From assembly GCF_009914755.1 (NCBI RefSeq), contig NC_060925.1: DNA of 64,000 bases. One strand, written 5' to 3'. Both the position numbers and the translations under genes were made by a program. This DNA comes from the human T2T-CHM13v2.0 reference genome, Homo sapiens. Under the pieces are notes generated by a model. It ran no database searches. It was not told the DNA's origin and saw only the letters and a program-made list of their open reading frames with translations. Shown here in pieces: positions 50,125 through 51,990 of this stretch. How positions within the stretch are numbered: the stretch's first letter is position 1; each line of letters opens with the position of its first letter.

Positions 50125-51990
50125 GGAGGAGGTAGTGGGATGGTCAGGTGCCAGGCTTGGTCGGCGGCCTCTGTGACAGCCGAGTCCAGGGGCCCTTTGC
50201 TGCTGCCAGTTTCTCCAATTGCTCCATCCAGGATGACCACGTCCCTATGCATGCCCTATAAGGGAGACAGCTAGACTTCAACACATTTCTGCTGCACAGT
50301 GACTAATCATGCCCCTCCCAGCCATGGCCCCGCCGCTAACTGGGCTCTGGTTATTCACGTATGCCTTGCATTACTGCTTGCAAACAGCCATGACCGTTGG
50401 GCTTTAAAGCCCTGCCTCCACGCTGTCTCAGCTTTAGACAGCTGACTTCAGAGCCACTCATCTGCTGCTCAGCAGCTGGGTAAACCCAGGTCAGTCACCC
50501 AGCCTTTCAGCTTCAGACTTCAGGCCGCTTGTCTGAATTAGAAATTGTGTGAAGCACTTTGCCTGCAGACCAGGCACGTAACGTGCTCACTAAAGGGAAG
50601 CCATAACCATATAATACCCAAGCTGGAGAAGGGGGTTAGGGACAGCAGGGAGAGGGAAACCCTGCCACTACACACAGGGTTGGGCTGTCTCCAGGGTGGG
50701 CAGCCAAGGAGCCAGGAAAAGCTAATGGTTAAAAATGTAGGTTTCAGACCAGATGCAGTGGCTTGCACCTGTAATCCTAGCAATTTGGAATGCTGAGGTG
50801 GGCGGATTGCTTGAGCCCAAAGACTCAAGATCAGCCCAGGCTCAGGCCGGGCACGGTGGCTCATGCCTGTAATCCCAGCCCTTTGGGAGGCCGAGGCAGG
50901 CGGATTACGAGGTCAGGAGATGGAGACCATCCTGGCTAACACGGTGAAACCCCGTCTCTACTAAAAATACAAAAAATTAGCTGGGCATGGTGACGGGCGC
51001 CTGTAGTCCCAGCTACTCGGGAGGCTGAGGCAGGAGAATGGCTTGAACCTGGGAGGCGGAGCTTGCAGTGAGCCGAGATCACAGCACTGCACTCAGCCTG
51101 GGTGACAGAGCTAGACTCTGTCTCAAAAAAAAAAAAAAGATCAGCCCAGGCAATGTAGTGAGACCCCTGTCTCTACAAAAAATACAGAAGTTAGTCACAT
51201 GGTGGTGTATGCCTGTGGTCCCAGCTACATGGGAGACTGAAGCGGAGCATTGCCTGAGCCCTGGAGGTCAAGGCTGCAGTGAACCATGATCAAGCCACTG
51301 CACTCCAGCCTGGGTGACAAGAGGAAGACCTTGTCCCCCCAAAAAGAAAAACATTAGTTTCAGTCAAACCCACGTTCGTTCCCTACCATGTGTAGCTGTG
51401 GGACCCTACACAAGTGAAATTGCCTCTGAGCCAGTTGCCTCATGTAAAACTGAGATGACCATACTTAACATGGCCATCGCAATAACTAGTGTTGGTTACC
51501 TGGCCGCTTAAGTAATTTGTGTAAGAACAGATTTACCCCACCCAAAAGAACTGGGCCATGGAGAGCCTTCATAGGAAGAAAAGGACTTATCTCCTCTTGG
51601 TCAAAGTGACCAAATGACTGCATAGCCCTCGCAGCTTCCCCAGTCTCCCCACCCCCACAGAATTTGAGAGAAGCAGCTGAGCATCTAGAGACAGCTGGGT
51701 TACCTGCAGCTTGCGAGTGGTCCATCGCAGGACAGTCAAGGCCATGCCAGGGGCACTGGTGCTATATACACAATCTGCAGGACCTGCTCCACCAGGGCCA
51801 TGGCCTTGAAGTGGTGCTTGTTCCAGAAGCTGGGTTGGGGGAGGGTATTGCACGGGGGTCAGTACTAGGGGTCATCTCAGGGCGGTTGCCTGCACCCAGG
51901 TCCCTGAAGCACTGAGGGGCTAATGGCTTCTAAGTAGACATCTTACATTTTTGAGCATCAGAATGCATGCATGTTTCTGGGCCCCTCATC
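50125..51990 (-). pseudogene. Decayed unprocessed AKR7 fragment (homologues of exon 6, intron 6, exon 7 and part of intron 5)
   Basis: 51704-51829 reads FWNKHHFKAMALVEQVLQ, then a frameshift, then STSAPGMALTVLRW..LQ|GTAAC (cf. AKR7[19 protein letters not shown]). 50255 downward reads GMHRDVVIL...GPLDSAVTEAADQAWHL (cf. GAHGDAVIL...[17 protein letters not shown]). Flanking introns also align with AKR7L. Confidence 0.88.

What the first reader, a model, noticed from the sequence alone, without database searches (positions are those of the whole stretch)
50125..51990. Fossil of an additional tandem AKR7 gene (exons 6-7 plus introns) between MRTO4 and AKR7L
Seen: on the - strand, 51829-51704 is a 126-nt copy of AKR7L exon 6 (130 nt), reading FWNKHHFKAMALVEQVLQIVY, then a +2 frameshift, then STSAPGMALTVLRW...LQ. 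50255 to about 50125 is a deleted copy of exon 7 (GMHRDVVIL; shifted-frame MEQLEKLAAAK; GPLDSAVTEAADQAWHL). Intron sequence also aligns: 50260-50322 AGGGAGACAGCTAGACTTCAAC..TTCTGCTGCACAG matches 56989-57052, and 51900-51990 matches 58325-58415. It is therefore a genomic duplicate, not a retrocopy. Established: the human cluster is described as three genes (AKR7A2, AKR7A3, AKR7L). Inference: a further, much more diverged paralogue once stood at the end of the cluster. I found no copies of exons 1-5 at 52-55 kb. I cannot tell whether it is already annotated.
Basis: partly seen in the sequence, partly recalled or inferred. Interest (0 to 1): 0.8.

Follow-up and report, generated by a model that had tools for sequence, protein, structure and literature searches.

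The report
Ancient AKR7 gene-tail fossil beside MRTO4
Between MRTO4 and AKR7L lies a badly decayed copy of only the last two exons of an aflatoxin-aldehyde-reductase (AKR7) gene, left by a very old local duplication that also copied the last exon of MRTO4; it is an ordinary dead gene fragment that helps order the history of this small gene cluster.

Summary
On the minus strand, 49268-52042 is colinear with the 3' part of the AKR7 genes: end of intron 5, exon 6 (126 nt against 130), intron 6, exon 7 coding part (133 nt against 162), 3'UTR and 3' flank. It keeps intron sequence and splice dinucleotides, so it is a genomic duplicate, not a retrocopy. It carries 7 exonic indels and has lost its stop codon and poly(A) signal. 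It is about equally distant from AKR7L, AKR7A3 and AKR7A2 (intron K2P 0.50-0.52, against 0.06-0.10 among those three), so it predates their split. No trace of exons 1-5 or a promoter was found by tblastn, blastn or an nhmmer profile.

New here:
- The fossil extends further than reported, through an AKR7A2-type 3'UTR into the end of the MRTO4 3'UTR.
- A decayed copy of the MRTO4 intron 7/exon 8 junction lies at 54726-54899, with a second copy downstream of AKR7A2.
- All blocks are colinear and similarly diverged.

One old tandem duplication across the convergent 3' ends of MRTO4 and the ancestral AKR7 gene explains the order seen. I favour a fragment that was never a complete gene (0.5). A whole paralogue that later lost exons 1-5 is not excluded (0.4). 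Indel counts argue against a long functional life. Interest is low to moderate.

The parts
51830..52042 (-). Remnant of AKR7 intron 5 (its 3' end). Clear homology reaches 51991 and is doubtful up to 52042.
   Evidence: blastn 51902-51988 against AKR7L 58323-58412; nhmmer hit 51991-51667, E 4e-42; four-way alignment; SW z=23, 0 of 200 shuffles.
51704..51829 (-). Copy of AKR7 exon 6, 126 nt against 130 nt. It has indels of +2, -7 and +1, is frameshifted, and keeps the flanking AG and GT.
   Evidence: genome-wide it matches only AKR7A2, AKR7L and AKR7A3 at 73-74%.
50256..51703 (-). Copy of AKR7 intron 6. It is homologous at both ends (51667-51703 and 50256-50680) and interrupted by Alu elements at about 50750-51355.
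   Evidence: (nhmmer 50680-50061, E 5.5e-43).
50123..50255 (-). Copy of the coding part of AKR7 exon 7, 133 nt against 162 nt. It has deletions of 11, 3, 4 and 11 nt, and the stop codon is replaced by CAG.
   Evidence: genome-wide it matches only the three AKR7 genes at 70-71%.
49897..50122 (-). Copy of an AKR7A2-type 3'UTR. The AATAAA-equivalent was lost by a 4-nt deletion near 49912.
   Evidence: Alignment with the AKR7A2 3'UTR. AKR7L and AKR7A3 lack this stretch.
49268..49896 (-). Copy of the AKR7 3' flank, homologous to the DNA downstream of AKR7A2. Its low-coordinate part (49268-49650) is also the end of the MRTO4 3'UTR on the other strand. An Alu piece lies at 49460-49584.
   Evidence: 49614-50371 against L005 1243-2038 (62% over 823 columns, E 4e-49); 49268-49425 against L005 1068-1225 (65%, E 4e-9); 49359-49424 against AKR7L 56652-56725; nhmmer 49418-49358.
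52043..52349 (+). Alu with a flanking target-site duplication (CCTTGCATTT / CCTAGCATTT). It is a simple later insertion at or next to the point where AKR7 homology ends.
   Evidence: Sequence read; Alu match.
52350..54725 (.). Spacer of about 1.6 kb of non-Alu DNA plus three Alus. It shows no homology to AKR7, MRTO4, SLC66A1 5' DNA or anything else in the 108 kb examined, except that its last 175 nt (54551-54725) also occur downstream of AKR7A2.
   Evidence: Genome-wide, 52345-53049 and 53964-54246 are unique, and 53298-53673 has two weak hits. 10 of 35 open frames were scanned against Pfam and none passed a cut-off.
54726..54899 (+). Decayed genomic copy of the last 12 nt of MRTO4 intron 7 plus the start of exon 8, with a local insertion of about 53 nt. 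Weaker homology to the MRTO4 3'UTR continues to about 55300.
   Evidence: 54803-54899 against 48216-48313 (69%, E 3e-9) and 54726-54763 against 48192-48229 (84%, E 6e-5); SW 36 against shuffle mean 9.2, 0 of 300; three-way alignment with the copy near AKR7A2.
48192..49650 (+). Real MRTO4 exon 8 with the last 12 nt of intron 7. This is the left end of the proximal duplication unit (48192 to about 52042). The distal unit is 54726 to about 58465.
   Evidence: Colinear blocks. There is no homology to the left of 48192 / 54726.

Best explanation
The feature is a dead 3' fragment of an AKR7 gene: end of intron 5, exon 6, intron 6, exon 7, 3'UTR and 3' flank, at about 49268-52042 on the minus strand.

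Proposed origin: MRTO4 and the ancestral AKR7 gene lay tail to tail. A tandem duplication copied a segment of roughly 2.7 kb (before the Alu insertions). It ran from 12 nt upstream of MRTO4 exon 8 to a point in AKR7 intron 5. Such an event leaves both genes intact and places one 3' fragment of each between them, in the order MRTO4 - AKR7 tail - MRTO4 exon 8 copy - intact AKR7. That is the order seen.

The intact distal AKR7 gene later gave rise to AKR7A2 and the AKR7A3/AKR7L ancestor, carrying the MRTO4 exon 8 copy along. That ancestor then split into AKR7A3 and AKR7L.

On this reading the fragment never had exons 1-5 or a promoter, has drifted neutrally since, and has no function of its own.

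Shown: the homology, its extent, colinearity, relative age, decay, and the absence of exons 1-5.
Inferred: that the intron 5 end is the original duplication breakpoint rather than a later deletion.

The confidence of 0.5 is for the full statement, including 'never a complete gene'. That the feature is a real, old, non-functional genomic AKR7 relic made together with the MRTO4 exon 8 copy I hold at about 0.95.
For: (1) Colinear same-strand blocks link unit 1 to unit 2:
- 48192-48313 with 54726-54899
- 49359-49424 with 56652-56725
- 50149-50534 with 56859-57275
- 51667-51988 with 58061-58412
The matching blocks in the AKR7A2 unit are 89505-89692, 93068-93225, 93243-94038 and 95517-95868 in extended window coordinates.

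(2) All parts of the unit are about equally diverged:
- Introns: fossil against AKR7L, AKR7A3 and AKR7A2, K2P 0.50, 0.51 and 0.52 (n about 434).
- Real MRTO4 exon 8 region against its two copies, K2P 0.52 and 0.53.
- Synonymous distance, 0.46.

(3) The event is older than the known genes. In the same intron columns AKR7L-AKR7A2 is 0.077, AKR7A3-AKR7A2 is 0.105 and AKR7L-AKR7A3 is 0.057. The two MRTO4 exon 8 copies share a 1-nt and a 35-nt deletion and differ from each other by only K2P 0.16.

(4) The fossil keeps the roughly 437-nt 3'UTR/poly(A) stretch that AKR7A2 has and AKR7L/AKR7A3 lost.

(5) Nothing 5' of intron 5 is detectable, although 3' parts of the same age are found at E 1e-42.

(6) The Alu at the homology end has a target-site duplication, so it did not cause a recombination deletion.

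(7) Neutral decay from early on: exon indels are 7 in 256 nt and intron indels 13 in 472 nt. The expected exon count is 3.5 if neutral throughout and 1.8 if neutral for half the time, with P(>=7 | half) = 0.002. dN/dS is 0.51, against 0.18-0.20 between the live genes.
Against: - A simple tandem duplication should join the intron 5 breakpoint directly to the MRTO4 exon 8 copy. Instead 2.7 kb lies between them, of which about 1.6 kb is non-Alu DNA. That DNA is unique in the genome and of unknown origin. Its last 175 nt were already there before the AKR7A2 split.
- The whole-gene-plus-deletion alternative predicts the same gene order.
- dN/dS of 0.51 lies between the values I estimate for a copy dead on arrival (about 0.6) and for one functional for half the time (about 0.4). 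It rests on only 80 codons.
- The indel test uses small counts from a MAFFT alignment of sequences about 35% diverged. P(>=7 | neutral throughout) is itself only 0.067.
- No other species could be examined.
Confidence: 0.5

Rival explanations
1. One reading: a complete fourth AKR7 paralogue. The old duplication unit ran from MRTO4 intron 7 to beyond the AKR7 start site. The proximal copy was a full gene that was silenced early, and it later lost intron 5 (5' part), exons 1-5 and its promoter in one or more deletions.
For: - It gives the same gene order and the same co-duplicated MRTO4 exon 8 copy.
- The later duplication in this cluster (AKR7L against AKR7A2) was a whole-gene unit, from 54551/89028 to the start site at 63652/101622. 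It too is followed by kilobases of unrelated spacer, so spacers are usual here.
- The 1.6 kb of unexplained non-Alu DNA could be what is left of the fossil's upstream region.
- AKR7 copy number is reported to vary among mammals with diet (PMC11797053, passages read).
Against: - It needs an additional deletion of at least 4-5 kb.
- No trace of exons 1-5, introns 1-4 or the promoter was found with a profile search that finds the 3' parts at E 1e-42.
- The spacer matches no AKR7 upstream region and no SLC66A1 5' DNA.
- Indel and dN/dS data leave no room for a long functional life.
- The Alu at the boundary is a simple insertion, not a recombination scar.
Confidence: 0.4
2. The similarity is not a true paralogous relic. 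It could be chance, a shared interspersed repeat, or a piece of a processed AKR7 retrocopy.
For: Identity is only 62-74%, and the region is rich in Alus.
Against: - E-values reach 1e-28 to 1e-49 outside the Alus.
- 0 of 200 shuffles reached the observed score.
- Genome-wide, the fossil exons hit only the three AKR7 genes.
- Introns 5 and 6 and the splice sites are copied. The true AKR7A2 retrocopies, at chr1:112.9 Mb and on chrX, begin at the exon junction (query base 17), with no intron sequence matched.
Confidence: 0.01
3. The fragment has been taken over for a present-day function, for example as part of MRTO4 3' end formation or 3'UTR regulation, or as a non-coding transcript. This could hold together with either origin above.
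For: The fossil's 3' flank (49268-49650) overlaps the annotated end of the MRTO4 3'UTR (hub table).
Against: - No RefSeq functional element or transcript is listed over 49651-55503 (hub table).
- No Rfam family matched in 48000-56000.
- Divergence of the exons is only moderately below that of the introns (0.31 against 0.51), as expected when just the live gene is constrained.
- Indels are as dense in the exons as in the introns.
Confidence: 0.05

Closest known systems
AKR7L (AFAR3), the neighbouring polymorphic or transcribed pseudogene
   Same: Same family, same strand and same cluster. It is homologous in exon 6, exon 7 and the adjoining introns.
   Different: AKR7L keeps all 7 exons and one premature stop, and it is 3-6% diverged from AKR7A3 and AKR7A2 in exons 6-7. 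The fossil has only exons 6-7, 7 indels and 24% raw exon divergence, and it branched before the three genes split.
AKR7A2P1 / AFARP1, the known AKR7 pseudogene
   Same: A dead AKR7 copy in the human genome.
   Different: AFARP1 is described as a retrotransposed processed mRNA (PMC11202113, passages read). It is listed among genes of a 1p12-1p13.3 deletion next to SLC16A1 (PMC9394163, passage read). Here it is matched at chr1:112936753, 92% to AKR7A2, starting at the exon boundary. The fossil has introns, lies in the cluster and is far older.
AKR7A2, the cluster member next to SLC66A1
   Same: The fossil shares with AKR7A2 alone the 3'UTR, the poly(A) region and about 600 nt of 3' flank. An MRTO4 exon 8 copy lies downstream of AKR7A2.
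   Different: This is shared ancestral sequence, not closer kinship. Exon and intron distances from the fossil to AKR7A2, AKR7A3 and AKR7L are equal. AKR7L and AKR7A3 simply lost that stretch.
Unprocessed (duplicated) partial pseudogenes at the edges of tandem gene clusters, as a general class (named from general knowledge)
   Same: Intron-bearing, next to its parent, truncated at a duplication or deletion breakpoint, and decaying neutrally.
   Different: Here the reciprocal fragment of the neighbouring convergent gene (MRTO4 exon 8) is also preserved and was carried along by later duplications. This lets the unit and the order of events be reconstructed.

Membership tests
AKR7 (aflatoxin aldehyde reductase) gene family, as a gene relic | Sequence homology to AKR7 exons above chance | tested here: met
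   tblastn with the AKR7L protein found the exon 6 piece at E 9e-8 and the exon 7 piece at E 4e-5. DNA E-values reach 4e-28. Genome-wide hits are only AKR7 genes.
AKR7 (aflatoxin aldehyde reductase) gene family, as a gene relic | Same intron positions, with homologous intron sequence | tested here: met
   Acceptor and donor lie at the same positions as in AKR7L, AKR7A3 and AKR7A2. The end of intron 5 and both ends of intron 6 align.
AKR7 (aflatoxin aldehyde reductase) gene family, as a working enzyme gene | Open reading frame covering the whole (alpha/beta)8 barrel, including the catalytic residues encoded in the 5' exons (placement of those residues recalled, not tested) | tested here: not met
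   Exons 1-5 are absent. There are 7 indels, 6 of them not a multiple of three, in exons 6-7, and no stop codon.
Unprocessed (duplicated) pseudogene | Retains introns and flanking DNA of the parent and lies beside it | tested here: met
   Introns 5 and 6, the 3'UTR and the 3' flank are copied. It lies 3.5 kb from AKR7L on the same strand.
Processed pseudogene (retrocopy) | Exons joined without introns, with a poly(A) tail and target-site duplication | tested here: not met
   A 1448-nt intron 6 copy separates exons 6 and 7. By contrast, the matches to the retrocopies on chr1:112.9 Mb and chrX begin at the exon junction (query base 17), with no intron sequence matched.
Product of one tandem duplication across convergent 3' ends | Reciprocal fragment of the neighbouring gene, colinear and of the same age | tested here: met
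   The MRTO4 intron 7/exon 8 copy at 54726-54899 has K2P 0.52 to the real exon region, against 0.50-0.52 for the AKR7 introns. The order is as predicted.
Product of one tandem duplication across convergent 3' ends | Direct junction of the two units | tested here: not met
   2.7 kb lies between 52042 and 54726, of which about 1.6 kb is non-Alu, unique and unexplained. Whether it was inserted later could not be tested.

The most novel reading that the evidence does not exclude
The fossil is what remains in humans of a complete, ancient AKR7 gene that arose around or before the placental radiation and stood next to MRTO4. Other mammals may still keep it intact. One candidate is the divergent rodent AKR7A1-type gene. 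In that case human AKR7A3 and AKR7L would be later duplicates of the AKR7A2 lineage and not its orthologues, so the orthology assignments of the family would need revising.

Against this, over the 15 sites of exons 6-7 where rat AKR7A1 and mouse AKR7A5 differ, the fossil agrees with AKR7A5 at 8, with AKR7A1 at 1 and with neither at 6. I counted these by eye. This gives no support, but it does not exclude the idea either.
Probability: 0.08. Interest if true: 0.5.

Novelty: new member of a known kind. Interest (0 to 1): 0.25.

Why it matters
The fossil adds a fourth, older layer to the history of the human AKR7 cluster.
- It shows that the AKR7A2-type 3'UTR is the ancestral one.
- Together with the MRTO4 exon 8 copies, it gives markers for the order of events: an old duplication over the MRTO4/AKR7 tails, then the split of AKR7A2 from the AKR7A3/AKR7L ancestor, then the split of AKR7A3 from AKR7L.
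- For annotation, it is a candidate unprocessed pseudogene that is missing from the RefSeq table supplied.
- It has no evident bearing on enzyme function or disease.

Tried and rejected
- Search for exons 1-5, introns 1-4 or a promoter in 52-55.5 kb. Methods were blastn with word size 7, tblastn with word size 2, nhmmer --max with a three-gene profile and Smith-Waterman with shuffles. Nothing was found.
- Alu-mediated deletion at the intron 5 boundary. Rejected, because the Alu at 52043-52339 has its own target-site duplication.
- Extension of the duplicated unit further into MRTO4 (intron 7, exon 7 and upstream). None was found: SW z is 0.2-1.5.
- Origin of the spacer 52350-54725.
  - It has no match in 108 kb of the cluster, apart from its last 175 nt (54551-54725), which match DNA downstream of AKR7A2. 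The 108 kb includes the upstream regions of AKR7L, AKR7A3 and AKR7A2 and 6 kb of SLC66A1 5' DNA.
  - Two of its non-Alu pieces are unique in the genome. The third has two weak hits, perhaps an old repeat.
  - 10 of 35 stop-to-stop frames of at least 45 aa were scanned against Pfam. There were only two sub-threshold chance hits.
  - A 142-aa open frame at 52495-52923 was translated and showed nothing recognisable.
- Alu-Alu crossover as the cause of the AKR7L/AKR7A2 unit boundary. The two nearby Alus are in opposite orientation, so this is not a simple case, and I did not pursue it.
- Rfam scan of 48000-56000: no family matched.
- dN/dS as a test of a former functional period: inconclusive, at 0.51 over 80 codons.
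- Special likeness of the fossil to rat AKR7A1: none seen (by eye).
- The AKR genomics paper of Mindnich and Penning (2009) is not held, so its AKR7 list is known to me only through the passages of PMC11202113.
- I did not run the large protein-database searches. Their hits carry no species names, and 80 decayed codons would not place the fossil reliably.
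Full report
**1. What is there**

On the minus strand, the interval between MRTO4 (which ends at 49650) and AKR7L (which ends at 55504) contains non-Alu blocks. They are colinear with the 3' part of AKR7L and in the same orientation:
- 50149-50324 matches 56859-57054 (70%, E 4e-21).
- 51667-51865 matches 58061-58260 (74%, E 4e-28).
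- 51902-51988 matches 58323-58412 (71%, E 8e-5).

With gentler scoring these blocks merge into 50149-50534 and 51667-51988. A profile of AKR7L, AKR7A3 and AKR7A2 run with nhmmer --max gives 51991-51667 (E 4e-42), 50680-50061 (E 5.5e-43) and 49418-49358 (E 5e-6). Every other hit in 48001-55503 is an Alu.

Base-level alignments show the following:
- Exon 6 is at 51829-51704, 126 nt against 130. It has indels of +2, -7 and +1, and the AG and GT are kept.
- The exon 7 coding part is at 50255-50123, 133 nt against 162. It has deletions of 11, 3, 4 and 11 nt, and CAG stands in place of the stop codon.

**2. More than chance, and not a repeat**

- The intron 5 piece alone scores SW 36, against shuffles of mean 8.8 and maximum 13. 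None of 200 mononucleotide shuffles reached it.
- Searched against the whole genome, fossil exon 6 finds 4 of 4 scored candidates: itself, AKR7A2 (74%), AKR7L (74%) and AKR7A3 (73%).
- The fossil exon 7 region finds itself and the same three genes at 70-71%.
- The known retrocopy AKR7A2P1/AFARP1 lies elsewhere, at 1p13 next to SLC16A1. That placement comes from the passage of PMC9394163 read. The description as a retrotransposed mRNA comes from passages of PMC11202113 read.
- Here that retrocopy is matched at chr1:112936753 and another on chrX. Both matches start at the exon junction.

**3. The fossil is longer than reported**

After the exon 7 coding part, the fossil aligns with AKR7A2, not with AKR7L or AKR7A3:
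- 49614-50371 matches L005 1243-2038 (62% over 823 columns, E 4e-49).
- After an Alu piece, 49268-49425 matches L005 1068-1225 (65%, E 4e-9).

This covers the AKR7A2 3'UTR, its AATAAA (lost in the fossil by a 4-nt deletion near 49912) and about 600 nt of flank. AKR7L and AKR7A3 lack about 437 nt here. Because the fossil and AKR7A2 share the stretch, it is ancestral and was deleted in the AKR7A3/AKR7L lineage. The low-coordinate end of the fossil flank (49268-49650) is also the end of the MRTO4 3'UTR on the opposite strand.

**4. The 5' end**

Homology stops in intron 5 at about 51991-52042. An Alu lies at 52043-52339. It is flanked by a 10-nt direct repeat with one mismatch, so it is a plain insertion and not the scar of an Alu-Alu deletion.

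Beyond it, 52350-53047 shows no similarity to intron 5, to exons 5 and 4, or to the whole gene bodies of AKR7L and AKR7A2 (SW z of 1.0 or less). tblastn with the AKR7L protein (word size 2, E up to 10) finds only the exon 6 and 7 pieces in 49651-55503, apart from one wrong-strand hit at E 2.3.

**5. A second relic that explains the arrangement**

After Alu masking I compared 52340-56860 with the MRTO4 region:
- 54726-54763 matches 48192-48229 (84%, E 6e-5).
- 54803-54899 matches 48216-48313 (69%, E 3e-9).

Together these cover the last 12 nt of MRTO4 intron 7 (including the acceptor) and the start of exon 8. The score is SW 36 against a shuffle mean of 9.2, and 0 of 300 shuffles reached it. 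It is not a repeat: the real exon 8 region has only two other genomic matches, retrocopies on chr17 and chr18 that begin at the exon junction. Left of 54726 there is no likeness to MRTO4 intron 7 or exon 7.

A further copy lies downstream of AKR7A2, at extended window coordinates 89505-89692 (chr1:19123505-19123692). It is 70% identical to the real exon region (E 1e-12).

The two copies share a 1-nt and a 35-nt deletion. They differ from each other by K2P 0.16, and from the real exon region by 0.52-0.53.

**6. Relative ages**

| Comparison | K2P |
|---|---|
| Fossil against AKR7L, AKR7A3, AKR7A2, shared intron columns (n about 434) | 0.50, 0.51, 0.52 (bootstrap ranges 0.41-0.63) |
| AKR7L-AKR7A3, same intron columns | 0.057 |
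| AKR7L-AKR7A2, same intron columns | 0.077 |
| AKR7A3-AKR7A2, same intron columns | 0.105 |
| Fossil against each gene, exons (n = 255) | 0.31 |

Elsewhere AKR7L and AKR7A2 are about 81% identical over 1978 columns.

The fossil is thus equally far from all three genes and several times older than their splits. The MRTO4 exon 8 copies give the same two levels, 0.52 and 0.16.

By inference, about 0.25 substitutions per site per lineage exceeds the roughly 0.15-0.2 that I recall for the human lineage since the human-mouse ancestor. That places the event around or before the placental radiation. The regional rate is unknown, so this date is rough.

**7. Reconstruction**

The blocks define a proximal unit, 48192 to about 52042, and a distal unit, 54726 to about 58465. 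Consider a tandem duplication of a segment spanning the tail-to-tail ends of MRTO4 and the ancestral AKR7 gene. It keeps both genes intact and places an AKR7 tail and an MRTO4 exon 8 copy between them, in exactly the observed order.

Later events were these:
- The distal gene, together with the exon 8 copy, duplicated to give AKR7A2 and the AKR7A3/AKR7L ancestor. That unit runs from 54551/89028 to 63652/101622, ending at the start site.
- AKR7L and AKR7A3 then split, with a boundary at 55442-55470 / 67767-67795.

**8. Whole gene or fragment?**

Both readings give the same order. They differ in one point only: whether the intron 5 end is the original breakpoint or a later deletion.

For a fragment that was never complete:
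- It needs only one event.
- Nothing 5' of intron 5 is detectable.
- The other end of the unit also cuts a gene, since it lies inside MRTO4 intron 7.

Against a simple tandem junction:
- 2.7 kb separates the units. About 1.6 kb of this is non-Alu DNA with no match in the 108 kb examined, apart from its last 175 nt.
- That DNA has essentially no other copy in the genome.
- Its last 175 nt predate the AKR7A2 split.
- Unrelated spacers also follow the later whole-gene unit, so the spacer does not decide the matter.

On how long the copy could have functioned:
- dN/dS between the fossil and the consensus of the three genes is 0.51 (80 codons, 19.5 synonymous and 36.5 non-synonymous differences). 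Between the live genes it is 0.18-0.20. This fits little or no constraint, but it is imprecise.
- Indels are as dense in the fossil's exons (7 in 256 aligned nt) as in the introns (13 in 472 nt), although in exons only the fossil lineage is free to accumulate them.
- The expected exon count is 3.5 if the fossil was neutral throughout and 1.8 if it was neutral for half the time. P(>=7) is 0.067 and 0.002 respectively.

So if the copy was ever complete, it died early. I put the fragment reading at about 0.5 and the whole-gene-plus-deletion reading at about 0.4.

**9. Comparison with rodent enzymes**

Alignments of AKR7L exons 6 and 7 to solved structures give four sequences: human AKR7A3 (2clp), human AKR7A2 (2bp1), mouse AKR7A5 (2c91) and rat AKR7A1 (1gve).

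Read by eye against the fossil peptides:
- The fossil shares some states with the rodent proteins where all three human genes differ, for example T at exon 6 position 23 and D at exon 7 position 38.
- It shares others with the human genes, namely H at exon 7 positions 3 and 42.
- At the 15 sites where rat AKR7A1 and mouse AKR7A5 differ, it matches AKR7A5 at 8, AKR7A1 at 1 and neither at 6.

This gives no sign that the fossil is the human counterpart of the rat AKR7A1-type gene, but it does not exclude it.

**10. Function**

None is indicated:
- There is no open frame and no 5' exons.
- No RefSeq element lies over the interval (hub table).
- No Rfam family matched in 48000-56000.

**11. Novelty**

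- The supplied RefSeq table has no feature between MRTO4 and AKR7L.
- Six literature searches covered these terms: AKR7L with pseudogene; AKR7A2P1; AFAR, aflatoxin B1 aldehyde reductase, pseudogene and 1p36; AFARP1; AKR7A2, AKR7A3, gene duplication and MRTO4; aldo-keto reductase, 'genomics and annotation' and AKR7L.
- Of the papers they listed, I read passages of three. Those name only the three cluster genes and the retrocopy AFARP1/AKR7A2P1. A further note says AKR7 copy number varies among mammals with diet (PMC11797053, passages).
- GENCODE and pseudogene databases could not be consulted. The Mindnich and Penning (2009) annotation paper is not held.
- I rate it a new member of a known kind, an unprocessed partial pseudogene, with low to moderate interest.

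Noticed in passing
Outside the window: chr1:19123505-19123692 (window-equivalent 89505-89692), locus L012: A second decayed copy of the start of MRTO4 exon 8 lies about 3.5 kb downstream of AKR7A2. It shares a 1-nt and a 35-nt deletion with the copy at 54726-54899.
   Followed up: yes
window 56763 (AKR7L) against L005 1263-1699 (AKR7A2): AKR7L and AKR7A3 lack about 437 nt of 3'UTR/poly(A) region that AKR7A2 and the fossil keep. This points to a deletion in the AKR7A3/AKR7L lineage, which must then use other poly(A) sites.
   Followed up: partly
window 63652 against window-equivalent 101622; 54551 against 89028: AKR7L-AKR7A2 homology stops at the transcription start. DNA upstream of AKR7L and AKR7A3 is unrelated to the AKR7A2/SLC66A1 promoter side, so the AKR7A3/AKR7L ancestor acquired new upstream DNA.
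   Followed up: partly
window 56763-58519 against 58528-60480: AKR7L and AKR7A2 are 88-91% identical around exons 6-7, including intron sequence, but about 81% identical over exons 2-5 and their introns. This may reflect gene conversion in the 3' part.
   Followed up: no
window 55442-55470 against window-equivalent 67767-67795: The low-coordinate boundary of the young AKR7L/AKR7A3 duplication unit (about 12.3 kb) lies beside Alu elements on both sides.
   Followed up: partly
G000 C23:117255414-117255820 and C1:112936753-112936977: There are two AKR7A2 retrocopies, on chrX (90%) and at 1p13 (92%, which is AKR7A2P1). Both matches start at the exon 6/7 junction of the query.
   Followed up: no
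G000 C17:50802824-50803122 and C18:13302365-13302661 (L009, L010): There are two MRTO4 retrocopies (92% and 87%). Their matches begin exactly at the exon 7/8 junction.
   Followed up: no
window 52495-52923, minus strand: A 142-codon stop-free frame lies in the unexplained spacer. It has no Pfam family above cut-off. By my estimate a frame of this length is expected by chance about 0.2 times in the interval.
   Followed up: partly
window 53517-53633 (within 53298-53673): The only part of the spacer with other genomic matches has two weak hits, on chr5 and chr14 (74-80% over 70-117 nt). It may be an old interspersed repeat.
   Followed up: no
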